DNA from: an uncultured delta proteobacterium | GTDB taxonomy: Bacteria > Desulfobacterota > RBG-13-43-22 | Direction: 5' to 3' | Assembly: GCA_963838485.1 (NCBI GenBank) | Contig: CAWIRY010000115.1 | Span: 74,162-138,161, forward strand | DNA length: 64,000 bases | Part shown: piece after piece, positions 9,869 to 52,255 of the stretch | Numbering within the stretch: position 1 is the first letter of the stretch | How the letters are laid out: each line of letters begins with the position of its first letter | Made by a program: the position numbers and the translations under genes | Notes under the pieces: generated by a model | Database searches by the model: none | What the model was told of the DNA's origin: nothing | What the model saw: the letters and a program-made list of their open reading frames with translations, nothing else

Positions 9869-9956
9869 GCCTGGGTGGCGGAACTGGTAGACGCAAGGGA
9901 CTTAAAATCCCTCGGTCCTCGTGGCTGTACCGGTTCGATTCCGGTCCCAGGCACCA
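9869..9956 (+). tRNA. tRNA-Leu (UAA), likely integration site
   Basis: GCCTGGG acceptor, AGGGA-CTTAAAA-TCCCT anticodon arm, long variable arm, GGTTCGATTCC, CCA. Confidence 0.95.
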
Positions 9957-17566: not shown

Positions 17567-17775
17567 TTGCCGTTTCCTTTTACCTAGGAGCCTGTCGGAC
17601 TTAAAAAATACATAATACATAAGAATTTCCGTTATATTAAATATAGGGAGAATTTTTTCCTTTCTTTGCTAAAAAATCGAAAAAATGATTCAGAATTAGG
17701 AATGGCCACAGCTATCCAGAAAGATGGGGGCTAAATATTATTTTTAATGCCAAAACCATTCCTATTAACTGTCAA

Positions 17776-18897: not shown

Positions 18898-19489
18898 TTT
18901 TTGAATTAACTTGAAGATACAAACCGCGTGTATAAATCAACCTTGCTAAGATAAGCCATACCCTCCCACCACTACTTCCAACGGGTCCCATCTATCCATT
19001 TTTGAGACTCCTGTCGAATAATTTTTACCATGTCAGTGCATCAGGCAATAGATCCAATATTGCTATGTGCATTATAATTCTGGTATAAGGTTTGGGAAAA
19101 GATAGTTGCAGCGTTCCAGGCTGGTTTCACCCAGCCACTACCGAGGGGCATTTCGACCACCAAATTACTCTCCAAAAGTCCATCTGAAATGCCCCAGGAT
19201 CGACGATCTTCCTCCAGCCCATCTAAATACCTTCATTAAATAAGTATCTATAGTCGTTATGAAATTAACTTTTGAGGCCTTTATAGAGATTTTAGGGAAT
19301 GGTTTAGTAGCCACACTCCCAAAGTCGTGTATTTACTATTAGTATTTTCAATAACTTGCAAAGGGAAAAATAGAGAACACTGCTTTTTTGCAACCTGCTT
19401 TCTATGGTTTTTGTGCATTTTGCGGAAGAATTGTCACAGAATTAAAATGGGATATCATCCGGGAAATCACCGTCGGGCTGATGATCGTT

Positions 19490-26400: not shown

Positions 26401-26853
26401 ATCCTTTAGCCATCGATCGTCTTCAGGGTTGATGCCAAGGGCAAGATCGGCGATGCCCTCGCTGCCGAATTCAAACATAAGTTCCATTACATTGCTGATT
26501 CTGCGCATCTCGCACAAATAAATGATGGTTTCAATCGCTTCTCTCTGTGCCCAATGATACCGAAAGGCTAAAGATTCACCTTCGCCGTTTAATATCAAAT
26601 GTTCCGATTTGAACCAGTAATTAAGCAAGGATATTGAAGTTTCGCTAATACTCGCATAACCACCTCGTCGCCATCCATCGACTTCTGCTCGAATCGATCT
26701 TACCAATGCACATTTACTGGGGCGGCGGCCAGGTTCAATAATTGCCGATGCACCCGGTACCGAGTTAGGAAGACGATGCATAATCGGCTCTTCCCACGGC
26801 TTGAACAATGGTTCAAGAGCGGCTGCATTTTTTTCCGTGACCTCAAAAGCCAT
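23428..26853 (-). CDS. res: Type III restriction enzyme Res subunit
   Basis: ATGGGKT, DEAHH, LREGWDV, EQTLGRGLR, YVPDF..VELKG. Confidence 0.9.
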   Translation of the reverse strand: MAFEVTEKNAAALEPLFKPWEEPIMHRLPNSVPGASAIIEPGRRPSKCALVRSIRAEVDGWRRGGYASISETSISLLNYWFKSEHLILNGEGESLAFRYHWAQREAIETIIYLCEMRRISNVMELMFEFGSEGIADLALGINPEDDRWLKDCCKIATGGGKTKVMSLAIVWSYFHRLRETDSNLPQHFVIIAPNLTVYERLKDDFENCSIFYKDPLLPTDWVNDFQMQVILQDNPGGSSTRGTIYLTNIHRLYESRDENDEGDDDKASIFGPPVKKAKALDTGAALRERISSHPCVMVMNDEAHHLHDPDLAWNRAINALHSQSLSKGNRGVRLQLDFSATPKYNDGNLFNHIICDFPLGEAVDAGIVKVPVIGESDALVIRGDNRTPAHQRYNMHLQLGYQRYEKTYEELNKVRKPILFVMTEDADAANEITDYLDSKQFPLLKGRVLNIHTRLKGKIKTFIRGGREVKEFVEKETGMKPEDLRELREMSRELDKKDSKFRCVVSVMMLREGWDVKNVTTIIPLRPYSAKSGILPEQTLGRGLRRMFPLAETPEIVTVVHHPAFRKLYEEELAQEGLDIAYLPIREAFKQTVTIFVDHEKKPVKDLEIEIPLISDSVEMSTELKGLSIDEVREFFETKKRFYRLPIGKIKTESIEYEERHLFTDEVVAKMKVDVGLLSNAWSAASYFAQELGRACHVSNPHSILTPVIEEFISKVLFEREVDLYAGDVDHRMRDIDVMEHIRATFTPLILDKIVRKKERRRISQGQILSLWKPYQATSNDKRPAVQAKKTMFNLVPCENEFERAFVDFCDYASDVIASAKNAGPQKLMIDYMKPDGHRALYVPDFFIRSKENSYYLVELKGKVDNLVLVKVRAAVEWCKAGSKGRVKWRFLYIPYHLFQQSAASTIEELSRACEPSLRGLIEEAKTGQQELPLFEETAQKEAEELFSRVLWEAGIQKAPTAVEGQMRQAITLLDHAIRSGMPEFGHAFQPLLHPLDDYAIRILDKQLTPKIPTSQQDRENYFSPYLDTLKTRDRIQLEKYGRYLKDNLVFGRSIMKLGTLLFCLGYAKDGGLGATGVWKDVAKLFSGSKMKSLYYKLEKVNEFRNTRVAHVELKLNNADEAWKSMIVWLECLDQFVEMAS

Positions 26854-26855
26854 GA

Positions 26856-28922
26856 TTAAACCTCCACGTCGATAACTGTCGTGGTATCTACACCAAAAAC
26901 ATCAATCACCTTGACGCAAATCTTCTTATTGCCCTTATTCTTGTATTCCCAACCAATGTATGTTCTTTCTTTTAACGAGCGATCCTTTCTGGTTCGAAAA
27001 TCCTGCCAATGATGTTCAAATGGCTTGTTTGCGCTCCAGTCAAAATCAACAGCCCAGAAATCAATGAAATCAAAAGGTGATTTTACCGCGCGTTCCCTCA
27101 AGGCGGCCATTTCAGATTCTGGAGCTTCCGCCAACGCCGGGGAGAAACGATTCAATTTGACATCAATCTTCTTTCCCTTCTTGACAGCTTTTACCTCCAG
27201 GGCTCCAGCCTCAAAGAACTGGCATTCCCTCCGGTTCGGTTCCATGATTTCTCTTGGGATGTATTTCAACTTGATGTTCAGACCGCTTTCTGCCTCGATA
27301 GCCTGTTTCTTATGGGATAGTTCCATTTCAAATTCCCATGCAAGACAATGAAGCTCTCGTCCTCCGGCAGCACTCGCCGCTTCTGATATTGTGCGGAGTT
27401 CTTCAAAGGTAAAAATGCCATCAATATGATGCACGTGAACAAAAGCCCCGTGTTTTGTTCCGTGCAGAAGGGAATTTGATGATAACTGTAAAGGAGTTGC
27501 TTTATAGAATTGAAGAACAATTTGGCGATGTTCCGTATCGGCACCCTTGAGGCGCTCCATTTGCCACCATTGGCGTTCGTAACGACCAAGATTATAGACG
27601 TCGAAGGAGCGATAAGGCTTGCTATCTGCATGCAGCTCCCGCTGAACTTGAATGAGGCGTTTACGGCTAACGTGTATGGCATAACGACCTAAATCTACAC
27701 CTATCCAACGTCGGTCGAGTTTCTCGGCAACAGCCATTGTTGTACCAGAACCAGAAAAAAGGTCAGCAACGAGGGCGCCTTTGTCAGAGGATGCACGGAT
27801 AATGCGCTCTAAAAATGGCTCAGATTTCTGCGTCACATAAGCATTTGGGGCATTGTCGTAAGCATAGATATCAGACCAATCGGTATCGGCTGCGATTTCC
27901 TCTTTAGGTTCGACCCAGTAGTAACAGCGTGTTGCCCCTGGCTCGCGCTTGATAAATCTCTTCGATTTCCCAGTTTTTATCCAGTAATCGAAGAGGGTCA
28001 TCTTGTCAGAATACATATCTAGGTATTCTTGGTAGTTCTGCACTGCGAGTTCCGCTTTGTCTCTTGTCCAGCGCCACTGTCCATCCGCAAGATGTATTCC
28101 CAGCAGCGGATAACGTAATGTTGGACGGTCAGCATTATTCCAAAAATTGTTCCACTGTTCGTGATTTGATTCGGGTGCCTTTGTCAATGGAGCACGAAAT
28201 CGAGCAGATATATTCATTGAATACCATAGAACTGAGTCACAAGCGATATTCAAACGAGATACCGTGTCAAACTGATTCTGTAAGTTTTTTGTTTTTCTCT
28301 TCGCATAGATTTCATTCCTGAAATTATCACTTCCAAACACATCATCCATTAATAAGCGTAGGGATGAATTGACTCGATAATCACAATGCACATAAATGCT
28401 ACCTTTTTCACTAAGCAAATCTCGCATCATTGTAAGGCGTTCGTACATCATGTGCAGGTAGGAATCCGTACCTTTACCCCAAGTATCCCGATAAGCTACA
28501 GATTCTAGGATAGACTGCTCCTTCTGTACGGCTTCGCCTTCTTCCCCTAGTTGCACCTGCATGGTGAAATCAGCACCCACGTCAAAAGGAGGATCATTGT
28601 AAATCAAATCAACCTTGCCTCGGAACTGGTCCAACAAAGCGGCCATTGCCAGCTTATTGTCCCCCCAGATGAGAATGTTACGAAAATCATCTTGATGAGC
28701 CTTCATTGAATCAAATAACAAACCCTGGGCAATACTGCGGTCATGGGGCTCATCTATGGCTTCGATTCGTTGCAACGGTAAAGGGGTTGAGGGAAGTTTA
28801 ACGGGACGCCGGTTCCCATATTCATCGTATTTGCCTTCCCATACCAATCCAGTTTTCAATTTCGATAATGGGTGCGGATTTTCCGGACCCCACGTATGAT
28901 TAGACATGTTTTTTTTATCCAT
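26856..28922 (-). CDS. mod: Type III R-M DNA methyltransferase Mod subunit
   Basis: DPPF motif IV precedes DLFSGSGTT motif I (beta class); directly upstream of res. Confidence 0.92.
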   Translation of the reverse strand: MDKKNMSNHTWGPENPHPLSKLKTGLVWEGKYDEYGNRRPVKLPSTPLPLQRIEAIDEPHDRSIAQGLLFDSMKAHQDDFRNILIWGDNKLAMAALLDQFRGKVDLIYNDPPFDVGADFTMQVQLGEEGEAVQKEQSILESVAYRDTWGKGTDSYLHMMYERLTMMRDLLSEKGSIYVHCDYRVNSSLRLLMDDVFGSDNFRNEIYAKRKTKNLQNQFDTVSRLNIACDSVLWYSMNISARFRAPLTKAPESNHEQWNNFWNNADRPTLRYPLLGIHLADGQWRWTRDKAELAVQNYQEYLDMYSDKMTLFDYWIKTGKSKRFIKREPGATRCYYWVEPKEEIAADTDWSDIYAYDNAPNAYVTQKSEPFLERIIRASSDKGALVADLFSGSGTTMAVAEKLDRRWIGVDLGRYAIHVSRKRLIQVQRELHADSKPYRSFDVYNLGRYERQWWQMERLKGADTEHRQIVLQFYKATPLQLSSNSLLHGTKHGAFVHVHHIDGIFTFEELRTISEAASAAGGRELHCLAWEFEMELSHKKQAIEAESGLNIKLKYIPREIMEPNRRECQFFEAGALEVKAVKKGKKIDVKLNRFSPALAEAPESEMAALRERAVKSPFDFIDFWAVDFDWSANKPFEHHWQDFRTRKDRSLKERTYIGWEYKNKGNKKICVKVIDVFGVDTTTVIDVEV

Positions 28923-31437: not shown

Positions 31438-32183
31438 GTAGAGTAGGGAACTGGCGCCTGGCTGGAGCCGCTTTTGATCTTTTGGATGCACGCATCTACT
31501 AAGAACTATAACGGTCAGGGGTTTCCAGCTCCCCCTCGTCAAACCGTACGGTCGGTTTTCCCGAATACGGCTTTCCAATCATCTTCTTCCAAAGGCATTC
31601 GCTTTCGCTTGGCCTTCTGGTATATCTTCCACCGGAGTTTTCGGAACACACATGGAGTTTATAGCGTTGCCGCAATCTCCTTTCCTTCCCTCCTTCAGAA
31701 GCATGATGAAGGTATTGCCCCTTCCCTCTCTCAAGGTTATGTTGTCCTTGGGATGCAAGCGGTACTATTGGCAACTCCGACTCCCTCGCCGACCCGGTAA
31801 AATTTCGTTTCCTTATATTTACCAGTTGCTGCTTCCGCAGCATCGGCAAGGGTCTCCCGTGTTCATTGTCGTATGGCTTCCCCTGCGTGTCACCCCTGTT
31901 ACCCCGGAAGCTCATCTATCGGTTATGGTAGTTACTGTTAGGATAGATGCACCGGTCTTCCCCTGTGTAGGAGAGGGTCGACAACTCCATTGTAATTTTC
32001 GAGGCTACATCCAGGTTCGCTTGCGCTGCAACCCGCAGATTTGCCCAGCTTCCTTAAGAAGCCTTTGTCAGGGAACTTAGTGCTTCAGGTTACCCTTAAC
32101 ACCTCCCTCAAGCTACGTGGGCGAACTGCCGAACTCCCACAGTCGGACTTTAACCGACCAGTCATACGTTTTACACGGCATAC
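31438..32183 (-). mobile_element. Group II intron with internally deleted RT/maturase ORF
   Basis: 5' GTATG, domain V GAAAGCCGTATTCGGGAAAACCGACCGTACGGTTTG, 3' CCCTACTCTAC; EBS1 loop CCTACA matches exon TGTAGG. Confidence 0.85.
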
Positions 32184-33255: not shown

Positions 33256-33586
33256 TCAGATCGCAGTTTCGCCGGTCCTTATTCTGATCACTTGATCGAG
33301 GGTCGAGACGAATATATTTCCGTCGCCTATCTTGCCGGTCTCGGCCTTTTCCTGGATTGTTCTAACGACCTTTTCGACGAGGTTGTTTTCAGTGATCACT
33401 TCAAGCCTTACCTTCGGGATAAAGTCGACGTCGTTTTTGGCGGCGCGGTAAAACTCGATGTGGCCTTCTTTTCTTCCGAACCAATTCACCTTGGTCACCG
33501 CTATCCCTTGGATACCGATCTCGTTCAAGGCATCTTTGACTTCATCGAGCTTAAAGAGCTTGATGGTTGCTTCTATCCTTTTTATT
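33256..33586 (-). pseudogene. glnB: Degenerate P-II nitrogen regulator
   Basis: (I)KRIEATIKLFKLDEVKDAL..TGKIGDGNIFV..VIRIRTGE; start codon is ATA and T-loop Tyr is lost. Confidence 0.7.
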
Positions 33587-33675
33587 TTTTAATTTTCTAT
33601 GGTTTTCGATTTGAGAAAATTTTACTTTCCACTATAATTTTCAATCTGTCAGCGGTTGACTTTGCGAATGCTGGA

Positions 33676-34106
33676 ATCCGGGTTGGCCGTGATCGCCAGC
33701 TAAAGACCTCTTTGGTCCTGGAGGCCCTGCGGATGGCCTATTGGCGCCAGAAACCGACTCCGGGATTGATTTATCATTCCGATCGGGGCTTTCAATATGC
33801 CGCCGGTGACTATCAACGCCAACTGGAAATTTTCCACATGATCCCCAGTATGAGCCGCAAAGGGGACTGCTATGACAACGCGGTAGCCGAAAGTTTTTTT
33901 CATACCCTATAAACCGAAGAGGTTGGAGATCAGGCATACTCGTCCCGGGAAGAGGGCCAGCGTGCGGTTATCGATTATATCGAGATGTTTTATAACAGCC
34001 GCCGCCTCACTCCTTCCTGGGGCATGTCTCCCCCAATGATTTTGAAAAAAAGTTAACCTTGTCTATGGTTGCTTAACCGGGTGTCCGTTTTCTCTTGTCC
34101 AGATCA
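33676..34106 (+). pseudogene. IS3-family transposase remnant with right end
   Basis: YHSDRGFQY, SMSRKGDCYDNAVAESFF, internal stop/frameshift, YIEMFYN, ends ..GTGTCCGTTTT..CCAGATCA. Confidence 0.8.
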
Positions 34107-34756: not shown

Positions 34757-35224
34757 TCATCTTCCGCTACTACTATCCGGTTTAGAAAGGGTTCGAATAT
34801 AGGCAATTAGGGTAGTAAGATCCTGGGTCTTAAAAAGACCGCCCCATGAGGGCATAAGTGAAGAGAGGCCGTGCGCGGCGCCTCCGTCTCTAATAACCCC
34901 TTTGATTTGTTCATCAGACAACTTGGCTATGAAAGTCGGATCGGCTAATTTTGCGGGCGGAGTGGCCAACATGTAAGCATTAAAACCATCCCCATTTCCA
35001 GTGGCGCCGTGGCAAAGGACACAATAATAGTCATACAAGACCTTTCCCTTTTGTTCGACAGAGGTGAGTTTGGATTGTTTTTGCGGAAGTAAAAATCTTG
35101 ATTTTTCTTCTTTGGTTGGAGGCCCTTGAGAAGAGGGTTTTTGGCATTCTCCCTGGATATCCAGGATGAAAAGAATCAAGGCACTGACCAATATCATGAG
35201 GGATAAATATTTTGTCATACCCAT
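34757..35224 (-). CDS. Monoheme class I cytochrome c
   Basis: signal/TM, CVLCH, LMPSW. Confidence 0.88.
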   Translation of the reverse strand: MGMTKYLSLMILVSALILFILDIQGECQKPSSQGPPTKEEKSRFLLPQKQSKLTSVEQKGKVLYDYYCVLCHGATGNGDGFNAYMLATPPAKLADPTFIAKLSDEQIKGVIRDGGAAHGLSSLMPSWGGLFKTQDLTTLIAYIRTLSKPDSSSGR

Positions 35225-35234
35225 TCCTTTTCCT

Positions 35235-37199
35235 TTACTTGGGAGAAGCCAAAAAGGCCGCCATGGCTTCGACTTCCTTATCGGACAGTTTATAAACCGG
35301 CTCCACCGAGCGTTTTACAAAGGCCTTGGGATTTCGTAGATAATAGAGGATCCATTCGATCCTCAATCTGTCCCTGACCTTGGTCAGGTCCGGTCCGACA
35401 AGTCCGCCTTTTTGATTAATCTGATGACAGGCCTGGCAGGCGTATTTTTGGTGGTAAAGGATTTTACCGGCCTGGATGAGACCTGGATCACGAAAGGCGG
35501 CCCCTTTGATCTTGCCGCTCAGGTCCTCCACCCGGTCATCTACCAGGGTCGTATCAAAATAGGCATAGAGGATTTCGATTTCCGAATTCTGGATTTTGAA
35601 TTGGGGCATACGCTCCACCAGGATGGGCCGGATGGTATCGGGGGCCTTCATAAATTTCTCCAGCCAGGTCTTCTTGACCCGGCTCCCTTCCTGGGTCAGG
35701 TCGGTGGCCATTTCCCCGCCCTTTCCAAGGATTTTATGGCAGGTGAAACAGCGGTACTTGTCCAGGACCCTCCCGAATTTTCCCTGAGGGGCGTAGGTCG
35801 AAGGTCTCTCTCCCAAAGGCAGGGTATAGGCTGCCGGGACCTCCTGGCCTTTCATTCCCAACAGGAAGGTGGTTACTGCCTCGGCTTCCCGGTCGCTGAA
35901 GGAATAATCGGGCATCTTTAAATCCGCTTTGAAGAGCCTGGGGTTTTTCATCTTGTTGTACAGCCAGTTGGGAACGGTCCGATCCTTGGGGGCTACTGGG
36001 ATAAGACCAAAATCCAGATGGCTGATATGGATTGCCCCGATGGTGGTCAACTCCAATCCGATTTCCCCGCGATCCTTAACGCCTTCTATCTTGGTATGGC
36101 AGCCTGTACAACCCTGTTTTTCGATCAGTTCCTTGCCCCGTTGTTTGCTGCCCCCCTGGACCAACCGGGCCTGACTGGCAGCCTGGGTTTCATCCAATTC
36201 CAAATCGATATATTGATTGACCAGAAAGGTGACGATCTTTCGGATTTCCTGGTCGGAAAAACTATAGATGGGCATTTGTGAAGAAGCCCAGAGCTCATGG
36301 GGGTTTTTGATGATCCGGATAAGCCTTTCCGGGACCAGCTTGGAGGAGATCTTGCTCAACTCGGGTCCTATGGTGCCCCCTTTACCTTCCACGGAATGAC
36401 AACTGACGCAACGGGAATCGCCGAAGATTTTTTTACCCTCTTCGATCGATCCGCCCAACTCGACGCCAGTTGGTTTGCCCCCTTGAAAGAGAAGGGCGGC
36501 CACATCCGCCGCTTGTTGCGAGGAAAATTTCGGGTTGGGCATTTTCGTCCGGGGGAGATAGCTTCTGGGATTTAAGACCCAGCGATAAAGCCAATCTGGT
36601 TTGACCCTTTGACTCATCCGGTCCAGCGGAGGCCCCACTATGATTCTTTCTTTTCCCCTGACCAGGTGACAGCCCCGGCAGCCGTGATCCTGGAAAATGG
36701 CCCTTCCTTTGGCCAGGACCGGTGCCTGGTCCTGGATGAAATCGCCATGGCACAGTCCGCAGGAGTTCTCCATAAAGACCTGGTTGTAGAGGGCCTGATT
36801 CCAATTTTCCACCGGCCCGTGGGCGTCCTGCAAGGGAGTGGCCAAGCCCTGACCCCCATGGCAGATAGTGCAGCCGAATTTTTCGAAATCGTGGCCGCCG
36901 ATATCGGGATGGGACTGGAAGGGCTGAGGGGCATTTTGGAATCTCGGGTCATCCATCCCAAGATGGCAGGTCTCGCAGCGATCGGTTTTTTTTAATTTTT
37001 CGATCCACCGCTGGCGAACCCCGAACTGAAAGTCCGGGCTTTTACCGGTCAGGGTGGCCTTTTGGATTAGGAGTTTTTTAAACTGCTTCTGATAGGTCCG
37101 ATAGGAAGGGTTTGAGTTTTTCCAGACCTGTCCGATAAAAAGGAGAAAGACTAATAGGGCTAAAAATGGAAATATTTTTTGGAATAGGTCTTTCATCAC
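35235..37199 (-). CDS. Membrane-anchored octaheme cytochrome c
   Basis: 8 CxxCH motifs (CETCH, CTICH, CGLCH, CRGCH, CVSCH, CTGCH, CFTCH, CQACH). Confidence 0.9.
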   Translation of the reverse strand: MMKDLFQKIFPFLALLVFLLFIGQVWKNSNPSYRTYQKQFKKLLIQKATLTGKSPDFQFGVRQRWIEKLKKTDRCETCHLGMDDPRFQNAPQPFQSHPDIGGHDFEKFGCTICHGGQGLATPLQDAHGPVENWNQALYNQVFMENSCGLCHGDFIQDQAPVLAKGRAIFQDHGCRGCHLVRGKERIIVGPPLDRMSQRVKPDWLYRWVLNPRSYLPRTKMPNPKFSSQQAADVAALLFQGGKPTGVELGGSIEEGKKIFGDSRCVSCHSVEGKGGTIGPELSKISSKLVPERLIRIIKNPHELWASSQMPIYSFSDQEIRKIVTFLVNQYIDLELDETQAASQARLVQGGSKQRGKELIEKQGCTGCHTKIEGVKDRGEIGLELTTIGAIHISHLDFGLIPVAPKDRTVPNWLYNKMKNPRLFKADLKMPDYSFSDREAEAVTTFLLGMKGQEVPAAYTLPLGERPSTYAPQGKFGRVLDKYRCFTCHKILGKGGEMATDLTQEGSRVKKTWLEKFMKAPDTIRPILVERMPQFKIQNSEIEILYAYFDTTLVDDRVEDLSGKIKGAAFRDPGLIQAGKILYHQKYACQACHQINQKGGLVGPDLTKVRDRLRIEWILYYLRNPKAFVKRSVEPVYKLSDKEVEAMAAFLASPK

Positions 37200-37227
37200 T
37201 ATTACCTTTTTTAACGACTGGAAGAAC

Positions 37228-38358
37228 TCAATGGGTGGGCCAAGACTGCCATGGCCAATAAAAGACCCAGCCCGGCCCCCTCAGGAACTGACCAATGATA
37301 ATCAGACCCAGGTATACCGTGACGGCCGCGGTAAAAAGGATATTGGCCCGTCTGCGGCTGGGGTGAAACCAGACCCCGATCCCTTCCCCACCCCGATCGA
37401 AATAGGGGATCAGGATTATCAGGACGATCATGATATTGGGAACCAGGACTCCAAAAAAGAAAGGAGCCCCCCAGGACAAAAGTTCTTGCATACCCACCAG
37501 AAACCAGGGGGCTTTTACCGGACTGGGTGTTACCGAAGGATTGGCCGCTTCTTCCAAGGGGGCGTTAAATAAAAGGGATATCCCCATGACGATGGCCAGG
37601 ACCAGGAGGAATTTGGACAGCTCTCTAACGACGATATCCTGCCAGCGGTGCTCCGGATCGGAAGGGGCCTGGGGATTTTGGCCTTCCTGGAAATCCAGGT
37701 GTCCGCCCCAGAGGGCCCAGGCAAAAAAGTCGTCCTTGCGGATCCGCCAAAAATGAACGCCCATGAGCAATCCGATCACCAGAGGAATGATTTTAACATG
37801 CATCCCGTAAGCATGGGCCAGGGCGTTTTGCCCCACCTCGTTTCCGCCCAGGATCAGATATTTGAGCTTTGCTCCGATAACCGGCGCCGAGGTGACTACA
37901 TTGGAGGTAATGGTCATAGCCCAATAGCCCTTCTGGTCCCAGGGCAGGATGTAACCGGTTATAGCCATGACTATTGTGCAGAGAAATAGGAGCAGCCCGG
38001 TCACCCAATTGAATTCCCGGGGTTCCCGGTATTCGGCCGTAAAAAAAACGCGGGACATGTGCAGAAAGACCGATAAAAGCATCAGGTAAGCGGCAAAGCG
38101 GTGCATGTTGCGGAAGATCAGGCCGAAGCTGACCACGTATTCCAGGTCCTTGATCCCCTGGTAAGCCCTTTCGGTGTCGGGGGTGTAATAGAACATGAGC
38201 AGGACCCCTGTTATGGTCAGGATGATGAAGAGATAGAAATTAATCAGGCCCAGGCCCAAGATTTTGGTCTTCAGCCACTGATTAACGGGAATTTCTTTTC
38301 GGACGACGGATTTCCAAAAACGGTTCTGGAAGAGGAGATCGTTTATGTCGGTCCTCAT
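37228..38358 (-). CDS. Cytochrome b of Rieske/cytochrome b complex
   Basis: RNMH..LHMSRVF, GYILPWDQKGYWA, MH..VHFW, KAPWF (PEWY equivalent). Confidence 0.92.
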   Translation of the reverse strand: MRTDINDLLFQNRFWKSVVRKEIPVNQWLKTKILGLGLINFYLFIILTITGVLLMFYYTPDTERAYQGIKDLEYVVSFGLIFRNMHRFAAYLMLLSVFLHMSRVFFTAEYREPREFNWVTGLLLFLCTIVMAITGYILPWDQKGYWAMTITSNVVTSAPVIGAKLKYLILGGNEVGQNALAHAYGMHVKIIPLVIGLLMGVHFWRIRKDDFFAWALWGGHLDFQEGQNPQAPSDPEHRWQDIVVRELSKFLLVLAIVMGISLLFNAPLEEAANPSVTPSPVKAPWFLVGMQELLSWGAPFFFGVLVPNIMIVLIILIPYFDRGGEGIGVWFHPSRRRANILFTAAVTVYLGLIIIGQFLRGPGWVFYWPWQSWPTH

Positions 38359-38396
38359 GATCCGGGGTCTCCTTGGAAACGCTTCAGCCTTGGCCT

Positions 38397-38855
38397 TTAG
38401 ACCGAAAGGGTTTTTTGGAAAGGTACTAATCGACTCTCATCCACCTGGAGCCGACCGTCCGCGGTTAAAGTGACTTCATACCAGGGAAGGGGGTTTTGGG
38501 CCGGACCAACGGTTACCTGTCCCCGGGCATTAAACAGGCTGCCGTGGCAGGGACACTCAAACCGGTTACGCTCGGCCGACCATTGAACTGAACATCCCAG
38601 ATGGGTGCAGACGGCTGAGACGACCTTGATGAGATTTCCTTGGCGGATGACGAAGATCCTTTTGTCATCAAGATAATCCACGCCCTCAGGGTAGTCGTCG
38701 GGCCTGTCGATCTTGAAGATCTTGGGAGGCTCGTAAAGGACGTTGGGAATCACATAGCGGACGGAGGCTCCGGCCAGGCCTCCAAAGGTCCCTAAGGTGG
38801 CCAGCCAGCCGATACGATTCAAAATATCCCGCCTGGTGTATTTCTTATCGCTCAT
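38397..38855 (-). CDS. Rieske 2Fe-2S subunit (Tat signal)
   Basis: TRRDIL, CTHLGC, CPCHGS. Confidence 0.93.
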   Translation of the reverse strand: MSDKKYTRRDILNRIGWLATLGTFGGLAGASVRYVIPNVLYEPPKIFKIDRPDDYPEGVDYLDDKRIFVIRQGNLIKVVSAVCTHLGCSVQWSAERNRFECPCHGSLFNARGQVTVGPAQNPLPWYEVTLTADGRLQVDESRLVPFQKTLSV

Positions 38856-38895
38856 GTCTATCTCACGGCCCCAGCCTTGGGGCGGAATCGCTTTC

Positions 38896-39019
38896 TTAGC
38901 GCTTTATCAGGGCCACCAGGATTTCGGCAAGGACCAGCAGAAACACTCCTAACGCGCCCGCCGCCGATAACCACAATCAGCATTTCCTTGGGCAAACTAT
39001 AATCTTCCTGATTATCCAT
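38896..39019 (-). CDS. Small single-TM protein (~40 aa, one-base frameshift)
   Basis: MDNQEDYSLPKEMLIVVI/..GALGVFLLVLAEILVALIKR* after removing one G. Confidence 0.45.
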
Positions 39020-39061
39020 TTTGAGACTCGGCCTCATTTAATTATTTTTTGTCCGAAATTT

Positions 39062-39775
39062 TCAAAATACTCGGCTTCTCTGGTATATTCTGGAAGTCAA
39101 CTTGCCGGTTATAACTTCAAAGTCTGGTTTCTCTCGAAGACGATGGACCCAACCTGTTTTAAAGTCAGGCCACCAATATAAGCGATATGTCCCCGGGGGA
39201 ACTTTTTCAAAAACGTACCTTCCCTTAGCATCCGTTTGCGTATTCAGTGAAATCCCTTGATCTGTTTCATAAGATTCTTTATCGTCTCTCGAAAGCATTT
39301 TTTTAACAGAAGCCAGTGAAACACCGGTATAGTTTTCGAGTTCGATCTTAACCTTTCCGTTGACCAAAGGCTTCCCCTGCCAGAGAATAACACCCTGCAC
39401 GCTCCCCAATTCTTCCTGTAAAAGTTGTTCGTGGAGGTCCCCTTTTTTGGCAGATTTAGGCGGGGTAGGTGATGAACTACCAGTCCCCTTGCTCTCTTCC
39501 TGCATTATTTCGGGTCGGGGAAGCGGGATCGGTGAGAGTCCGGTCTGCTTGGGTTCGGCTTGCTTTTTCTCGAGACGTTCGATCCTTTTTTCAAGCTGTT
39601 CAAGTTTCTCTAATATTAGTTGTGTGTCCGATTTCTGAGCTCCTTTATCTTTTAAACCAATCTCATCTCCAAGGCAGTAGGTCGGAGACAACCACGCCGT
39701 CATCAAAACGACCAGCCCCATCAGACTCATGAGTCGTCCGGCACCTTTGCGGATGATCGTTCCCGACATCTTCAT
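39062..39775 (-). CDS. Exported coiled-coil + carboxypeptidase-regulatory-like domain protein
   Basis: signal peptide, LEQLEKRIERLEK, TDAKGRYVFEKVPPGTY. Confidence 0.7.
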   Translation of the reverse strand: MKMSGTIIRKGAGRLMSLMGLVVLMTAWLSPTYCLGDEIGLKDKGAQKSDTQLILEKLEQLEKRIERLEKKQAEPKQTGLSPIPLPRPEIMQEESKGTGSSSPTPPKSAKKGDLHEQLLQEELGSVQGVILWQGKPLVNGKVKIELENYTGVSLASVKKMLSRDDKESYETDQGISLNTQTDAKGRYVFEKVPPGTYRLYWWPDFKTGWVHRLREKPDFEVITGKLTSRIYQRSRVF

Positions 39776-39784
39776 ATCCTTATC

Positions 39785-40438
39785 TTAGCGTTCCTTTAAT
39801 TTGTCCCGTTCGAAATCTACAGTAACAGTCTTCCCCTCCTGCACGGTTACTTCCTTGGAGGTCTCCTTGAGCTTCTCATGCCAGACCTTCAGCTTGTAGG
39901 TCCCCGGGGGTACGTTTTTGATCTCATATTTCCCGGTATTGTCAGTTAGGACAAAATAGGGATTTTGTAAGACGATAACATAACCCAGCATCTCGGGGTG
40001 AACATTACAGAGCAGAGGAACCTCGCCAAGGTTATTAAAGGTCACGGTTTTTTTGACACCTGAGCCGTAAAGGCCGAGGTTAAAGCGAGTGGCCGCGCCT
40101 GGAGGGGTGAAGACATTGTGAGCGACCGTGTTATCGTTGGTGAAGTCAACGGTAGTCCCTTTTACGACGGGTAAAACATGGGGGTCAAAAGCCAGGCCTT
40201 TCTGGCTCATAAAAGAATTCTTTTTAGGGGGGGGAAAATCACCTTTCACCTGATCCACATAGACCACGGCCGGGTACCGCTTGACCCAGGGTGTATTGAC
40301 TACCCCTTTGATTATCCCTCCTGCCTGACGGCCTTTGGTTTCCTGGGCCCGGATCGGCAGGACTGTCAAAAAAACCGACAGGAACAAGATAACGGTAATA
40401 CATAAATAAACTCGACTTTTTTTGAAATAGTTGTCCAT
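39785..40438 (-). CDS. Cupredoxin (type-1 copper) + carboxypeptidase-regulatory-like domain protein
   Basis: HNVF...CNVHPEM ligand set; signal peptide. Confidence 0.8.
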   Translation of the reverse strand: MDNYFKKSRVYLCITVILFLSVFLTVLPIRAQETKGRQAGGIIKGVVNTPWVKRYPAVVYVDQVKGDFPPPKKNSFMSQKGLAFDPHVLPVVKGTTVDFTNDNTVAHNVFTPPGAATRFNLGLYGSGVKKTVTFNNLGEVPLLCNVHPEMLGYVIVLQNPYFVLTDNTGKYEIKNVPPGTYKLKVWHEKLKETSKEVTVQEGKTVTVDFERDKLKER

Positions 40439-40526
40439 GGTTTCCCCTCTCGTTAAACCTAATCTTTAAGATTCAGTGTCACCCGGAGGTATTTTTAAAC
40501 TTCATCGGGATGGACCCTTGGACCGG

Positions 40527-41891
40527 TTAAAAAGCAAAATCGAGCTGGAAGGACAGCATGTCGTCAGCCGACTTATCCTGGCCGGCGGCCTCCCGCGGTT
40601 GGTTAATCGTATAATGCATATATTCAACATTGAGCTTTATGTTGGCCCTTATCAAGAAAGCCAGTCCACCGATTATTCGGGCCATATTTTGATCGCCGAC
40701 GTTGTCTTCGGTCAGAGACTCATAGCGGGCATAAGGGATCAACCAGGGAAATACAAAATAGTGCCCCTCGATGAACCAGAGATTTTGCGTGGTGTTCGTG
40801 CTTGATGGTGTTTGGTAAAAAATCGAATATTTCTGCATTCCAAAATAATAAAATGGACTTTTTGTCTCCTCCGCGGTCGAAGTAGTATTCGCCACATTCC
40901 CGGTTTCCCTGATATATCCCGTGCCCAGGGAAAAGTCTTTGTAGTTCAAGCGAAAGTCTCCTCCAAACCGATCAGCCTGGTAGGCATTGACGCCGGTATA
41001 GGCCCGGTAGCCGAAGAGGCCGAAAAGAATCGAGTCGTCCCGCCAGTAACCGGACGGTGAGGTGTTGATCCCCCCCGCCTCAGATTTCGATCCCGAACCG
41101 TCGAAGCCCATCCCGCCGATTTTAAAAGCCAGCCCGCCGTAATAATCCTTGGCGCTGTTGTCAGAATTGGATTGTACTATACCGGCATAGTAGCGCGAAC
41201 GACTGCCGAATCCCTCTACCTGGAAACCGGGTTGAGGCTGCAGGTTGAGCACATCTTGATAGAGGTAATCGTTTATGGTAAAATTATTTTCATCCCTGGA
41301 ATTGGGTAAGGCGATCGATTGCCGGCCCACATTTCCGGCTTTAATGTTCAGATGGTTTTTGCCGAGGAGACTACTGCAAAGGTTCTGCCACATCAGCCAA
41401 ACCAGTCCATTGGTGTTGGTAGTCCCGGCTTCGCTGGTAAAGGCCAGATTCGTGAAAAAGGAGAAGTCCTTCCCTAAGTTACCCGCCGCAAGCAGGTCTA
41501 TCTCTCCTGGGAAGTTGAAGTCGGTATTGTTGGTAGTGGTTCCATTAGCGCTACCGGTATTGACATTCACGCCGCCGGTGGCCCGAATTGAAAGAGGAGG
41601 CATCCCGGGGATGTCGGAGGGCCAGAGAGAATTGGGAAATACTTTTTTGTAGGGCTCGGCCCCCATGCTGACCGGCTGATCCTTGACATAGAGTTCATCG
41701 GCATCAGGCAACTTATAACCGTTCAATCTGAAGGCTTCCCCTAAGGCGGATAGTTTCGGAAAGACGGTGTGGCAGGTCGTACAGGTGGTTTTGTATTTCC
41801 TGGCAAACGCAGGAATAGCCAATGCCTCTTTAGGGTAATGTGCAACAAGAAAGACAGCCAGAAAGATGCTTCCTAATACCATCCTTTTCAT
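40527..41891 (-). CDS. Cyc2-like monoheme cytochrome-porin fusion
   Basis: signal peptide then AIPAFARKY...CTTCH..FPKL..LGEAFRLNGY; beta-strand-rich C-terminus ending QLDFAF. Confidence 0.8.
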   Translation of the reverse strand: MKRMVLGSIFLAVFLVAHYPKEALAIPAFARKYKTTCTTCHTVFPKLSALGEAFRLNGYKLPDADELYVKDQPVSMGAEPYKKVFPNSLWPSDIPGMPPLSIRATGGVNVNTGSANGTTTNNTDFNFPGEIDLLAAGNLGKDFSFFTNLAFTSEAGTTNTNGLVWLMWQNLCSSLLGKNHLNIKAGNVGRQSIALPNSRDENNFTINDYLYQDVLNLQPQPGFQVEGFGSRSRYYAGIVQSNSDNSAKDYYGGLAFKIGGMGFDGSGSKSEAGGINTSPSGYWRDDSILFGLFGYRAYTGVNAYQADRFGGDFRLNYKDFSLGTGYIRETGNVANTTSTAEETKSPFYYFGMQKYSIFYQTPSSTNTTQNLWFIEGHYFVFPWLIPYARYESLTEDNVGDQNMARIIGGLAFLIRANIKLNVEYMHYTINQPREAAGQDKSADDMLSFQLDFAF

Positions 41892-42380: not shown

Positions 42381-43781
42381 GGTTCTTTAGCAAAATTTAT
42401 GGGTAATAAATGGCCCTATAAAAAGGGGTTAACGTTAGACTAAGATAAAAGTGCATCCCGCTCTCAAATCTGGCAAGATGGAAGTTGTGCGAAAACAAAC
42501 CATCGCCAGAGGAGAAACGGGATGCAGATCAAATATATCCTTAATCAGGTTCAAAAGCATAGTGGTTTTGTATATGGTCAAGTTCGATTAAGGAGAAGAC
42601 GAACTCAAATGACCCTGGAGATTGAAATTCGTCCTCGTCAGAACAGCCGCCCGATTTGTTCGGGCTGTGAGAAGAAAGGCCCCGGCTATGACACCTTGCC
42701 GGTCCGATGGTTTCAGTTTGTACCTCTTTGGGGCATAGCTGTTTTTTTCCTTTACGGCCTCCGGCGGGTCGATTGCCCTCGTTGCGGTGTCAAGGTAGAG
42801 CGGGTTCCCTGGGCGCAAGGGAAGAACCATATGACCATCCCCTTTTCCTGGTTCCTGGCTCGCTGGGCTAAGCGACTGAGTTGGAAAGAAACGGCCGAGG
42901 TCTTTCAGACCACCTGGGATAATGTATTTCGCTCGGTTAAGATGGCTGTCGCCTGGGGACTGGCCCATCGAGATCTTGAGAATGTTACGGCTATCGGCAT
43001 TGATGAGATCTTCTGGAAAAAGGGTCCTAAATACCTGACGATGGTCTATCAAATCGATATCGGGTGCCGACGATTACTCTGGATAGGTCAGGAGCGGACC
43101 CAGAAAACCTTACGGGCCTTCTTTGAAGACTTTGGCCCCGAGGCCACGGCCCGGCTTCGCTTCATCTGCAGTGATATGTGGAAACCCTATCTGCGGATAG
43201 TGGCCGAGTTAGCAGGTCAGGCGGTTCATATCTTGGACCGATTTCATATTATGAGTCAAGTGGGTAAAGCCATCGACAAAGTAAGAGCCCAAGAAGCCAA
43301 GCAGCTTAAGGCGAAAGGAGAACAGCCAGTCCTGACTAATAGTCGTTGGTGTTTACTGAAACGGCCAGAAAATTTAACCGACAAACAAACGGTAAAGCTG
43401 AAGGAACTGTTATCCTGCAATCTGAAAACGGTTCGCGCCTACCTCCTCAAGGAGGATCTGCAGCGCTTTTGGAGCTATACCTCCCCGAAATGGGCTGGTC
43501 GATTTCTGGACGAATGGTGTCAAAGAACGACGCGCTCCCGAATCGACCCGATGAAGAAAGTGGCCAAGATGTTACGCAATCACTGGGAGCTTTTGCTCAA
43601 TTGGTTCCGGGTCAAAGATCGAATCGCATTAGGTGCTGTAGAGGGCTTTAACAACAAAGCGAAATTGACCACAAAAAAAGCCTATGGCTTTCGTAGTTAC
43701 GAGGTGATTAAAATCGCTTTATATCACACACTTGGTGATCTGCCCCAGCAAACGGGCTCCCATAAATTTTGCTAATGAACC
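42381..43781 (+). mobile_element. ISL3-family insertion sequence
   Basis: IRs GGTTCTTTAGCAAAATTTATGGG / CCCATAAATTTTGCTAATGAACC; flanks GTTTTTTT / GTTTTTTC. Confidence 0.92.
42522..43775 (+). CDS. ISL3 transposase
   Basis: CSGC/CPRC zinc finger, IGIDE, SDMW, DRFH, EGFNNKAK..AYGFR. Confidence 0.93.
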   Translation: MQIKYILNQVQKHSGFVYGQVRLRRRRTQMTLEIEIRPRQNSRPICSGCEKKGPGYDTLPVRWFQFVPLWGIAVFFLYGLRRVDCPRCGVKVERVPWAQGKNHMTIPFSWFLARWAKRLSWKETAEVFQTTWDNVFRSVKMAVAWGLAHRDLENVTAIGIDEIFWKKGPKYLTMVYQIDIGCRRLLWIGQERTQKTLRAFFEDFGPEATARLRFICSDMWKPYLRIVAELAGQAVHILDRFHIMSQVGKAIDKVRAQEAKQLKAKGEQPVLTNSRWCLLKRPENLTDKQTVKLKELLSCNLKTVRAYLLKEDLQRFWSYTSPKWAGRFLDEWCQRTTRSRIDPMKKVAKMLRNHWELLLNWFRVKDRIALGAVEGFNNKAKLTTKKAYGFRSYEVIKIALYHTLGDLPQQTGSHKFC

Positions 43782-52175: not shown

Positions 52176-52255
52176 AAGTTAAATACGAAAACCAGGGTTC
52201 AAGGATTCCAGGATTCGAGGGTTCAAGGGTTTTAACTCCGTTTCTTTTTCATGCC

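What the first reader, a model, noticed from the sequence alone, without database searches (positions are those of the whole stretch)
34757..41891. Cyc2-like porin-cytochrome operon wired to a cupredoxin and a Rieske/cytochrome b-octaheme complex
Seen: one minus-strand run of Cyc2-like gene, type-1 Cu protein, exported protein, small TM peptide, Rieske, cytochrome b, octaheme cytochrome c and monoheme cytochrome c. Known: Cyc2 is the outer-membrane Fe(II) oxidase of several iron oxidisers, working with rusticyanin and a reverse bc1 in Acidithiobacillus. Multiheme-containing bc complexes occur in anammox bacteria. Inference: a complete surface-to-quinone electron conduit on an island of a probable anaerobe; direction and substrate unknown.
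Basis: partly seen in the sequence, partly recalled or inferred. Interest (0 to 1): 0.8.

Follow-up and report, generated by a model that had tools for sequence, protein, structure and literature searches.

The report
Cyc2 porin-cytochrome wired to bc complex
A sulfate-reducer-like soil bacterium carries one tight operon that links an outer-membrane iron-oxidase-type cytochrome-porin, through a blue copper protein, to a quinone-handling membrane complex, and the same wiring recurs in many uncultured anaerobes.

Summary
On the minus strand, 34757-41891, lie a Cyc2-type fused monoheme cytochrome-porin, a type-1 copper protein, an exported beta-sandwich protein, a small membrane peptide (frameshifted here), Rieske protein, b6-type cytochrome b, an octaheme and a monoheme cytochrome c. 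The first gene meets every published Cyc2 criterion I could test: diagnostic N-terminal motif, single heme site, PxL, length, and a predicted 16-strand barrel. Placement in Cyc2 clusters 1-3 could not be tested.

The whole operon is syntenic in seven relatives. Across 80 loci from many phyla the cupredoxin follows cyc2 in 75 of 76 testable cases. A Rieske/cytochrome b module follows in 27, an Alternative-Complex-III-like module in 4.

The operon is not itself an island. Its GC equals the genome's, and a congener has it beside kdp. Mobile DNA flanks it on both sides.

Best reading (about 0.5): an Fe(II)-oxidation-type conduit whose Rieske/b complex is the uphill branch into menaquinone, as in Acidithiobacillus. 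This genome shows no cytochrome-c oxidase or nitrate reductase as a sink, so outward quinol-driven electron export (about 0.3) remains a serious rival.

Verdict: new variant of a known kind, of moderate-to-high interest.

The parts
40527..41891 (-). Cyc2-family fused monoheme cytochrome c / 16-strand outer-membrane porin (454 aa from the ATG behind the AAGGAGG site; the longest ORF reaches 41906)
   Evidence: It has a signal peptide, then AxPxFARKY, 3 residues, CxxCH, 3 residues, PxL. This motif set is invariant in 36 of 36 aligned homologs and matches the published Cyc2 motif. There is a single CXXCH at residue 42. The AlphaFold2 model built with the alignment has pTM 0.71 and 16 strands. The best Foldseek hits are 16-strand porins PorB and OmpF, E about 1e-9. 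No Pfam or NCBIfam family matches.
39785..40438 (-). Exported type-1 copper protein (cupredoxin) with a C-terminal prealbumin-like (CarboxypepD_reg) domain
   Evidence: Pfam Copper-bind 1.6e-6 and CarboxypepD_reg 8.5e-11. The His107, Cys144, His147 and Met150 ligands are invariant in 14 of 14 homologs from several phyla, with amicyanin-like C-x2-H-x2-M spacing. The nearest solved sequences are the cupredoxin domain of a Cu nitrite reductase and amicyanin. It lies next to cyc2 in 75 of 76 testable loci.
39062..39775 (-). Exported protein with a charged, helix-prone middle part and a C-terminal beta-sandwich; no cofactor motif
   Evidence: It gives weak CarboxypepD_reg (1.1e-5) and fn3_3 matches, below the Pfam cut-offs. 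Its C-terminal 114 residues or so are 80-82% identical in relatives, and it holds the same operon position.
38896..39019 (-). Small single-TM peptide gene, split here by a 1-nt insertion near 38960
   Evidence: An intact ORF of about 40 aa lies at the same place in 13 of 14 relatives inspected (L036 is the exception). The DNA alignment shows one extra base in the window. The two half-ORFs appear.
38397..38855 (-). Rieske [2Fe-2S] subunit with a twin-arginine N-terminus
   Evidence: Pfam Rieske 1.2e-13. The best NCBIfam match is b6f PetC, below its cut-off. CTHLGC and CPCH boxes sit at residues 83 and 101, and the N-terminus carries an RR motif.
37228..38358 (-). Cytochrome b, a b6-type N-terminal half fused to a subunit-IV-like half
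   Evidence: Pfam Cytochrome_B 4.1e-43. The best NCBIfam matches are ExtP (225.5 bits, cut-off 290) and ExtQ (66.7, cut-off 150). The nearest solved sequence is cytochrome b6, 2.7e-41. HX13H lies at residue 86 and HX14H at 187. There is no Cys in the first 60 residues, and APWF stands at the PEWY position. It is the only cytochrome b found in the genome.
35235..37199 (-). Membrane-anchored octaheme cytochrome c (four c3/c7-like sites followed by four class-I domains)
   Evidence: Eight CXXCH motifs lie at residues 75, 110, 147, 174, 264, 364, 484 and 588, and there is one N-terminal hydrophobic segment. Pfam matches Cytochrom_C, Cytochrome_CBB3, Cytochrome_C7 and c3_2. No close solved relative exists. 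A homolog is present in 23 of 23 loci that have Rieske plus cytochrome b.
34757..35224 (-). Membrane-anchored or exported monoheme class-I cytochrome c
   Evidence: One CXXCH lies at residue 68. Pfam Cytochrome_CBB3 2.1e-9. A homolog is present in 22 of the 23 Rieske/b loci.
42522..43775 (+). ISL3-family transposase upstream of cyc2 (flank, not part of the system)
   Evidence: NCBIfam transpos_ISL3 286.9 bits, cut-off 180. It belongs to about 8.6 kb of 44.8% GC DNA that separates cyc2 from kdpD here but not in the congener locus L023.

Best explanation
The operon encodes a dedicated electron conduit between a dissolved extracellular redox species, most likely Fe2+, and the menaquinone pool.

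Proposed chain: a Cyc2-type outer-membrane cytochrome-porin takes single electrons at the cell surface. A type-1 copper protein carries them across the periplasm. The monoheme and octaheme cytochromes c pass them to the Rieske centre of a b6-type Rieske/cytochrome b complex. That complex, running in reverse at the expense of proton-motive force, reduces menaquinone. This is the 'uphill' branch of the Acidithiobacillus scheme (Cyc2, rusticyanin, CycA1, bc1), here written into one operon. In relatives the energy-yielding 'downhill' branch would be a distant cbb3-like oxidase encoded elsewhere.

Shown here: the parts, their cofactor motifs, the barrel fold, conserved synteny, and the near-obligate Cyc2-cupredoxin pairing.

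Inferred: the order of carriers, the substrate and the direction.

My odds: the architecture as a surface-to-quinone conduit about 0.85; inward (oxidising) direction about 0.5.
For: Cyc2 membership. The diagnostic motif, the heme site, PxL, the length and the 16-strand barrel are all met.

Precedent for direction. Every Cyc2 assayed so far in the papers I read oxidises Fe(II). That covers one representative of each of the three clusters (section read), a cluster-1 protein from Ghiorsea (abstract), and a cluster-3-type protein from a Dsr-bearing anaerobic Thermodesulfovibrionia MAG (passages).

Wiring. The full operon order is conserved in 7 relatives. The cupredoxin follows cyc2 in 75 of 76 loci that have at least 900 nt downstream. 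Its four Cu ligands are invariant in 14 of 14 homologs. Of the 80 loci, 27 carry Rieske/cytochrome b and 4 an ACIII-like module. These are the same two quinone-level partners proposed for known iron oxidisers.

Link to oxidases. Some loci place oxidase-related genes beside the pair: COX4 plus cytochrome c upstream in L078, and COX2-like proteins in L045 and L048. A heme-copper oxidase family gene is present in 22 of 23 genomes that carry the cyc2-Rieske/b cluster. Within the host family it is present in 7 of 7 genomes with an intact cyc2, against 8 of 12 without cyc2. In a congener it is a cbb3-like CcoN/CcoO next to ACIII-like genes. The two genomes of the genus with a damaged system (this one, and G008 with stops in cyc2) are also two that show no such oxidase. 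That is anecdotal, n = 2.
Against: This genome offers no sink for Fe(II)-derived electrons. The searches found no heme-copper oxidase, no NarG over its cut-off, no NirS and no Sec-type NosZ. The NirK model matched only a multicopper-oxidase-like ORF at 60 bits. There are no orthologs of the congener's ACIII/cbb3-like locus. The assembly is 93.8% complete. Only cytochrome bd was found, and by my own bookkeeping that gives no net gain after an uphill step.

Rieske/b complexes with multiheme c subunits are otherwise read as quinol oxidases.

Reported Cyc2 heme potentials run from -130 mV to +208 mV, so family membership does not fix direction.

The oxidase base rate in the family is already high (8 of 12), and kin are not independent.

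No expression data exist. Cluster placement was not tested. The small subunit gene is frameshifted, and an IS lies upstream.
Confidence: 0.5

Rival explanations
1. The same conduit runs outward. Menaquinol is oxidised by the Rieske/cytochrome b complex (a forward Q-cycle that conserves energy). Electrons pass through the octaheme and monoheme cytochromes and the cupredoxin to the Cyc2-type porin. The porin reduces a dissolved extracellular oxidant such as organically complexed Fe(III), Mn(III) or humic quinones.
For: In this genome it is the only direction with a thermodynamic sink, because no cytochrome-c- or cupredoxin-dependent terminal reductase was found. This is the genome's only cytochrome b, and the host is Dsr-bearing. 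Multiheme Rieske/b complexes of anaerobes are read as quinol oxidases. Geobacter has a porin plus Rieske/b cluster, extHIJKLMNOPQS, in a metal reducer, and the window's cytochrome b is closest to ExtP/ExtQ. Cyc2 homologs occur in Fe(III)-reducing taxa and in anoxic humic water. One Cyc2 heme was measured at -130 mV.
Against: In the papers I read, no Cyc2 has been shown to act as a reductase. Oxidase-related genes next to the pair in some phyla make no sense for outward flow. Oxidase genes are present in 22 of 23 carrier genomes. A monoheme buried in a porin can reach only dissolved acceptors.
Confidence: 0.3
2. In this particular genome the operon is a decaying remnant and no longer works, whatever its ancestral direction.
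For: A 1-nt insertion splits the conserved small membrane peptide gene. An ISL3 element and 8.6 kb of foreign-composition DNA separate cyc2 from the upstream region seen in the congener. The cbb3-like/ACIII locus of relatives is missing. The same-genus genome G008 has cyc2 with internal stops and also lacks the oxidase.
Against: All seven large ORFs are intact and 65-89% identical to relatives, with every cofactor motif kept. The frameshift may be an assembly error, which I could not check. A sigma-70-like site scoring 10 of 12 lies about 210 nt upstream, though such sites are no more frequent here than in shuffled sequence.
Confidence: 0.12
3. An ordinary respiratory Rieske/cytochrome b complex merely sits next to an unrelated porin and copper protein.
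For: Promoter and terminator scans cannot show co-transcription: 8 promoter-like sites against 8.1 expected, and 13 terminator-like sites against 12.5 expected.
Against: The same order and strand, with gaps of 9-90 nt, recur in 7 relatives and, with module swaps, in many phyla. The cupredoxin pairing holds in 75 of 76 loci. The porin carries a covalent-heme site.
Confidence: 0.03

Closest known systems
Cyc2 family of fused cytochrome-porins (Cyc2 of Acidithiobacillus ferrooxidans, Cyc2PV-1 of Mariprofundus, Cyt572 of Leptospirillum; criteria of Keffer et al. 2021, PMC8406198, sections 12-13 and passages read)
   Same: It shares the signal peptide, the AxPxFAR[Q/K][T/Y] motif, a single CXXCH, PxL, a length above 365 aa and a 16-strand porin resembling general and phosphate porins.
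   Different: The host is a Dsr-bearing anaerobe-type Thermodesulfobacteriota. The gene heads an operon with its own cupredoxin and a Rieske/b-octaheme complex. Cluster 1/2/3 placement is unknown.
Acidithiobacillus ferrooxidans iron chain: Cyc2, rusticyanin, then CycA1 to bc1 (uphill) and Cyc1 to the oxidase (downhill) (as described in He et al. 2017, PMC5566968, passages read)
   Same: The logic is the same: an outer-membrane Cyc2, then a periplasmic cupredoxin, then c-type cytochrome(s), then a Rieske/cytochrome b complex.
   Different: Here all parts lie in one operon with no oxidase genes. The copper protein is amicyanin-like with an extra beta-sandwich domain and has not been shown to be a rusticyanin. 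Cytochrome b is b6-type and fused to subunit IV. An octaheme stands in place of cytochrome c1. The quinone is presumably menaquinone (inference).
Geobacter sulfurreducens extHIJKLMNOPQS cluster (PMC5877670, passages read)
   Same: One cluster holds an outer-membrane porin-like protein with multiheme cytochromes c, a Rieske protein (ExtO), cytochrome b (ExtP) and a membrane partner (ExtQ). The window's cytochrome b scores best against the ExtP and ExtQ models.
   Different: The scores are below the equivalog cut-offs (225.5 against 290; 66.7 against 150). In the passages read ExtI is listed as a porin-like protein and not among the cluster's cytochromes c, whereas here the porin itself carries a heme site. 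The passages read list no cupredoxin in the ext cluster. The heme counts differ.
Anammox Rieske/cytochrome b complexes Kustd1480-1485 and Kuste4569-4574 (PMC12954380, passages read)
   Same: Both have a b6f-like cytochrome b with a subunit-IV-like part and a hexa- or octaheme cytochrome c in place of cytochrome f.
   Different: The window has no NAD(P) oxidoreductase subunit and no Cys for a cN heme. However, 8 of the 80 related loci in other phyla do carry a GltD-like FAD/FeS protein between the cupredoxin and Rieske genes.
'Candidatus Mariimomonas ferrooxydans' Cyc2 (PMC13647500, 2026, passages read)
   Same: It is a cluster-3-type Cyc2 in a Dsr-bearing, Wood-Ljungdahl-encoding anaerobic lineage, and Fe(II) oxidation was shown in E. 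coli.
   Different: The main text of that paper does not contain the words Rieske, cupredoxin, plastocyanin or cytochrome b (0 occurrences each). Sequence relatedness to the window's protein was not tested.

Membership tests
Cyc2 fused cytochrome-porin | AXPXFAR[Q/K][T/Y] motif just upstream of the heme site (said to be unique to Cyc2) | tested here: met
   The protein reads A-I-P-A-F-A-R-K-Y at residues 30-38. Columns A30, P32, R36, K37 and Y38 are invariant in 36 of 36 homologs. The spacer to CXXCH is 3 residues here, whereas the paper says '5 amino acids upstream'; the counting convention is unclear.
Cyc2 fused cytochrome-porin | Single CXXCH near the N-terminus followed by a PXL motif | tested here: met
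   There is one CXXCH, at residue 42. P50 and L52 are invariant.
Cyc2 fused cytochrome-porin | Length of at least 365 aa and a signal peptide | tested here: met
   The protein is 454-459 aa. An N-terminal hydrophobic segment spans residues 4-22 and is followed by A-L-A. No dedicated signal-peptide predictor was run.
Cyc2 fused cytochrome-porin | 16-stranded beta-barrel porin C-terminal to the cytochrome part | tested here: met
   The AlphaFold2 model built with a 36-sequence alignment has pTM 0.71 and 16 strands between residues 105 and 458. Foldseek's top hits are 16-strand porins, E 7e-10 and weaker. The cytochrome part is modelled poorly (pLDDT below 50).
Cyc2 fused cytochrome-porin | FeGenie Cyc2 HMM score and placement in cluster 1, 2 or 3 of the reference tree | not testable with these tools
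   No FeGenie HMMs or named reference Cyc2 sequences were available. The reference alignment is in figshare files that I could not reach.
Cyc2 fused cytochrome-porin | Fe(II) oxidase activity | not testable with these tools
   This needs biochemistry.
Rieske/cytochrome b complex (b6f-like) | Rieske CxHxGC and CxCH boxes; cytochrome b with two bis-His heme sites; a subunit-IV-like C-terminal part | tested here: met
   CTHLGC and CPCH boxes are present. HX13H and HX14H are present. Pfam matches Rieske and Cytochrome_B over their cut-offs, while Cytochrom_B_C scores 20.1 against a cut-off of 20.7. ExtQ matches at 2.3e-18.
Rieske/cytochrome b complex (b6f-like) | Cytochrome f or c1 as the c-type subunit; Cys for heme cN | tested here: not met
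   An octaheme and a monoheme class-I cytochrome stand in their place. No Cys occurs in the first 60 residues of cytochrome b.
Geobacter ExtOPQS (NCBIfam equivalogs) | Scores over the curated cut-offs for ExtP, ExtQ and ExtS | tested here: not met
   ExtP scores 225.5, below 290. ExtQ scores 66.7, below 150. ExtS scores 110.3, above 100, but only as the sum of three repeated class-I domains in a 654-aa protein, against a 262-position model.
Anammox-type Rieske/b with NAD(P) oxidoreductase | A GltD-like FAD/FeS subunit encoded in the cluster | tested here: not met
   It is absent from the window and present in 8 of the 80 related loci.
Type-1 copper protein (cupredoxin) | His, Cys, His, Met ligand set in a cupredoxin fold | tested here: met
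   Pfam Copper-bind scores 28.9 bits against a cut-off of 21.2. The ligands are invariant in 14 of 14 homologs. Rusticyanin identity was not tested.

The most novel reading that the evidence does not exclude
In Dsr-bearing anaerobes that lack a cytochrome-c oxidase, the Cyc2-type porin works backwards, as the terminal outlet of a respiratory chain. The chain would run from menaquinol through a Q-cycling Rieske/b6 complex, an octaheme wire and a blue copper protein to Cyc2, and on to dissolved Fe(III)-organic complexes or humics. The gene widely used as the marker of iron oxidation would then also mark an energy-conserving form of extracellular electron export, and the Cyc2-cupredoxin pair would be a direction-neutral, plug-in outer-membrane module for bc or ACIII complexes across a dozen phyla.
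Probability: 0.3. Interest if true: 0.8.

Novelty: new variant of a known kind. Interest (0 to 1): 0.62.

Why it matters
cyc2 is the gene most used to call 'iron oxidiser' in metagenomes. Two things shown here bear on that use.

1. A large branch of the family lives in sulfate-reducer-like and other anaerobe-type lineages.
2. It is almost always paired with its own blue copper protein (75 of 76 loci).
3. It is often hard-wired in one operon to a quinone-level complex, either Rieske/b6 with an octaheme or an ACIII-like module.

This gives a complete, testable pathway from surface to quinone in organisms where none had been drawn. It also puts the direction question (Fe(II) oxidation or electron export) in a form that a few potentiometric titrations and activity assays could settle.

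It further ties the puzzling multiheme Rieske/b complexes of anaerobes, including the anammox-like versions with an NAD(P) oxidoreductase subunit, to a defined outer-membrane partner.

In four literature searches and the papers opened, I found no description of this operon.

Tried and rejected
- **Single-sequence AlphaFold2 of Cyc2.** The model was useless (pLDDT 31.2) and was replaced by the run with an alignment.
- **Complex prediction for Cyc2 + cupredoxin + heme.** The job never ran. There is therefore no verdict on binding.
- **Expression.** No RNA holder was listed, and the DNA holders had only small shares of 0.06-0.12.
- **Promoter and terminator scans.** Counts were no different from shuffled sequence.
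- **Rfam.** It found nothing in or near the operon. A conserved 5' leader in relatives folds only weakly (-5.4 kcal/mol, little covariation).
- **att repeat for the tRNA-Leu island.** None was found.
- **Protein atlas.** It returned only 'hypothetical' clusters, plus Porin_O_P on 12% of the members of one cluster.
- **Homolog names.** Names of octaheme homologs are generic, and solved structures give no close octaheme relative.
- **The Caldithrix paper** concerns a different Rieske/b cluster.
- **PMC12442345** contained none of my search terms.
- **Oxidase as a discriminator.** Presence is 7 of 7 with the operon against 8 of 12 without it in the family. This is suggestive only.
- **Rejected idea: Fe(II) oxidation coupled to sulfate reduction or to cytochrome bd.** By my own reckoning the first is endergonic and the second gives no net charge gain. 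This is inference, not a tool result.

Full report
**What is there**

Between 34757 and 41906 the minus strand carries seven long ORFs in a row, separated by 9-90 nt.

| Coordinates | Gene product | Key evidence |
|---|---|---|
| 40527-41891 | Cyc2-like cytochrome-porin; real start probably the ATG at 41891, behind AAGGAGG | No Pfam or NCBIfam family |
| 39785-40438 | Exported protein: plastocyanin/azurin-type copper domain plus CarboxypepD_reg domain | Pfam 1.6e-6 and 8.5e-11 |
| 39062-39775 | Exported protein with a weak beta-sandwich match | |
| 38397-38855 | Rieske protein | |
| 37228-38358 | Cytochrome b, 376 aa | Pfam 4.1e-43; nearest solved relative cytochrome b6, 2.7e-41 |
| 35235-37199 | Octaheme cytochrome c, 654 aa | Eight CXXCH motifs and one N-terminal anchor |
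| 34757-35224 | Monoheme class-I cytochrome c | |

Between the third and fourth genes, relatives carry an intact ORF of about 40 codons for a single-helix peptide. In the window that ORF is split over two frames by one extra base near 38960. I could not tell whether this is a mutation or an assembly error.

**Is the first gene a Cyc2?**

Keffer et al. (PMC8406198; sections 12 and 13 and passages read) define the family by five features: a signal peptide, one CXXCH, an AXPXFAR[Q/K][T/Y] motif said to be unique to Cyc2, a PXL motif after the heme site, and a length of at least 365 aa followed by a 16-strand porin.

- The window's protein has the motif set exactly.
- The motif columns are invariant in all 36 sequences of my alignment, which spans 46-86% identity.
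- A single-sequence fold failed.
- With the alignment, AlphaFold2 gives pTM 0.71 and 16 strands between residues 105 and 458. The heme-binding N-terminus is poorly modelled.
- Foldseek's best solved matches are 16-strand porins PorB and OmpF, E about 1e-9.
- The protein atlas adds a cluster in which 12% of members carry the phosphate-porin family. That is the porin type Cyc2 is said to resemble.

Every defining feature I could test is met. FeGenie scores and placement in clusters 1-3 could not be tested, because no reference Cyc2 sequences or HMMs were within reach.

**How widespread is it, and what travels with it?**

- Family size. The word-indexed search found 698 proteins at E <= 0.001 among the 8000 candidates scored. 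All named ones were 'hypothetical'. The exhaustive profile search found 3408 representative clusters at E <= 0.001, 1082 at 1e-10 and 291 at 1e-30.
- Own genome. There is one copy.
- Kin. Among 40 relatives, 9 have a match: 5 of 13 in the genus, 8 of 20 in the family, and 1 weak match among 20 other families. The distribution is patchy.
- Synteny. The whole operon, in the same order, is present in seven relatives' genomes. Cytochrome b and the octaheme are better conserved (80-89%) than Cyc2 (65-81%).
- Species genomes. A scan found 355 stretches encoding a relative, and the best 80 loci were kept. They come from Thermodesulfobacteriota, Nitrospirota, Deferrimicrobia, Planctomycetota, Bacteroidota, Ignavibacteria, Zixibacteria, Gemmatimonadota, Omnitrophota, Calditrichota, Acidobacteriota and others.
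- Cupredoxin pairing. A cupredoxin homolog lies within 3.5 kb of cyc2 in 75 of the 76 loci that have at least 900 nt downstream. Its His, Cys, His and Met ligands are invariant in 14 of 14 sequences aligned.
- Quinone-level modules. Of the 80 loci, 19 carry Rieske plus cytochrome b. Another 8 carry these plus a GltD-like FAD/FeS oxidoreductase. Four carry an Alternative-Complex-III-like set. Twenty-three show none of these within at least 6 kb. Twenty-six are too short to say.
- Cytochromes in the Rieske/b loci. Among 50 loci with at least 6 kb downstream, 23 have Rieske/b. All 23 have the octaheme and 22 the monoheme.
- Regulator. A sigma-54 response regulator sits upstream in 22 of the 80 loci, none of them in the window's near kin.
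- Tree. A quick tree of 58 rows places the window in a well-supported 24-row clade of Thermodesulfobacteriota, Nitrospirota and Deferrimicrobia, 16 of which have Rieske/b. The linkage also appears elsewhere on the tree. My motif and length filters dropped 23 of the 80 loci, and the careful search did not finish.

**Island or not?**

A tRNA-Leu (9869-9956) is followed by an integrase, a DUF927 primase-like gene, a type III restriction-modification pair and group II intron RNA. This stretch is 42.1% GC. On the other side of the operon lie an ISL3 transposase and about 8.6 kb at 44.8% GC.

The operon itself is 50.4% GC, against 49.9% for the genome. In a same-genus genome it follows kdpD directly, and kdpD is also the next core gene here. 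So the operon is resident DNA bracketed by insertions, not cargo.

**Host physiology**

The assembly is 93.8% complete.

| Gene family searched | Result in this genome |
|---|---|
| dsrA | Present, 605 bits |
| Cytochrome bd | Present |
| Cytochrome b | Only the one in this operon |
| Heme-copper oxidase | None found |
| NarG | None over cut-off |
| NirS | None found |
| Sec-type NosZ | None found |
| NirK model | Only a multicopper-oxidase-like match |

By contrast, 22 of 23 other genomes carrying the cyc2-Rieske/b cluster have a heme-copper oxidase family gene, and 12 of those 23 have dsrA over its cut-off. Within the host family the oxidase is present in 7 of 7 genomes with an intact cyc2 and in 8 of 12 without cyc2. 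In a congener it is a distant cbb3-like CcoN/CcoO next to ACIII-like genes. The window's genome has no orthologs of that locus.

**Mechanism**

The parts suffice for a path from the cell surface to the quinone pool. The order I propose is: Cyc2, cupredoxin, monoheme and octaheme c, Rieske, cytochrome b, menaquinone. That order is inferred from location signals, from analogy to the Acidithiobacillus chain (PMC5566968) and from the near-obligate pairing.

I lean to the oxidising direction (about 0.5), for three reasons.

- Every assayed Cyc2 in the papers read oxidises Fe(II).
- bc and ACIII are the two quinone partners proposed for known iron oxidisers.
- Some loci place oxidase-related genes beside the pair, and carriers almost always have an oxidase.

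Against this, the present genome shows no sink. Multiheme Rieske/b complexes are otherwise read as quinol oxidases. Measured Cyc2 potentials span -130 to +208 mV. Outward, Q-cycle-coupled electron export to dissolved Fe(III) or humics therefore stays a serious rival (about 0.3).

A third possibility is that the operon is decaying in this genome. The evidence is the frameshift, the IS upstream, the missing oxidase, and a parallel in G008. It cannot be excluded (about 0.1) and is compatible with either ancestral direction.

**Compared with what is known**

The operon works like the Acidithiobacillus uphill branch. It resembles the Geobacter ext cluster in putting a porin and a Rieske/b complex together (PMC5877670). 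It resembles anammox Rieske/b complexes in its b6-like core with a multiheme c (PMC12954380).

It is a member of the Cyc2 family by the tested criteria. It is not an ExtP, ExtQ or ExtS equivalog, and it lacks the anammox NAD(P) oxidoreductase subunit.

Cyc2 in a Dsr-bearing anaerobe was reported in 2026. That paper's main text contains none of the words Rieske, cupredoxin, plastocyanin or cytochrome b. Four searches found no description of this operon.

**Verdict**

The finding is real, is conserved, and is a new variant of a known kind. The direction of electron flow is unresolved but directly testable.

Noticed in passing
window 17628-19016: A tandem array with a 74-nt period sits inside the low-GC island. 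TRF reports 9.2 near-identical copies at 17776-18459 plus degenerate flanking copies. The repeat finder counts 16 registers over the whole span. It lies between ORFs and has no known family.
   Followed up: partly
window 9869-32500: An integrative island lies at tRNA-Leu. It holds an integrase (10046-11185), a 1082-aa DUF927/NrS-1-polymerase-like primase (12642-15890), and a ResIII helicase plus N6/N4 methylase pair (23428-28922). Its GC is 42.1% against 49.9% for the genome. No att repeat was found.
   Followed up: partly
window 31438-32160 (-): Rfam finds group II intron RNA pieces here: D1-D4 at 89.9 bits and domain 5-6 at 43.3 bits. Only short ORFs with no family match lie between them, so no intact maturase is evident.
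   Followed up: no
window 33256-33912: Overlapping remnants lie just downstream of the operon: a 90-aa P-II nitrogen-regulator fragment on the minus strand and an IS3-type integrase-core fragment on the plus strand.
   Followed up: no
L038, L060, L073, L089 (and L031, L076, L085, L088): In Nitrospirota, Calditrichota, Ignavibacteria, Bacteroidota and an alphaproteobacterial MAG, a gene of about 620 aa for a GltD-like FAD/NAD(P)-binding FeS protein sits between the cupredoxin and Rieske genes. This echoes the NAD(P) oxidoreductase subunit of anammox Rieske/b complexes.
   Followed up: partly
L038, L042, L045, L060, L073, L075, L080, L089, L092 and 13 further loci: A sigma-54-dependent response regulator (receiver plus AAA+ plus Fis HTH) lies directly upstream of cyc2 in 22 of the 80 loci. 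None of these belong to the window's closest relatives.
   Followed up: partly
L018-L023, about 110 nt upstream of cyc2: Relatives share a conserved 5' leader with a weak hairpin (-5.4 kcal/mol, little covariation). The window's leader has diverged.
   Followed up: partly
G008:C51:791-1464: A same-genus genome has a cyc2 remnant with several internal stop codons at a contig end. It also shows no heme-copper oxidase gene, as in the window's genome.
   Followed up: no
window 50499-53506 (-): The Kdp sensor appears as two ORFs. One of 558 aa holds a KdpD sensor domain, Usp and a PTS EIIA domain. The other, of 416 aa, holds Usp, DUF4118 and GAF. Neither shows a histidine-kinase core.
   Followed up: no
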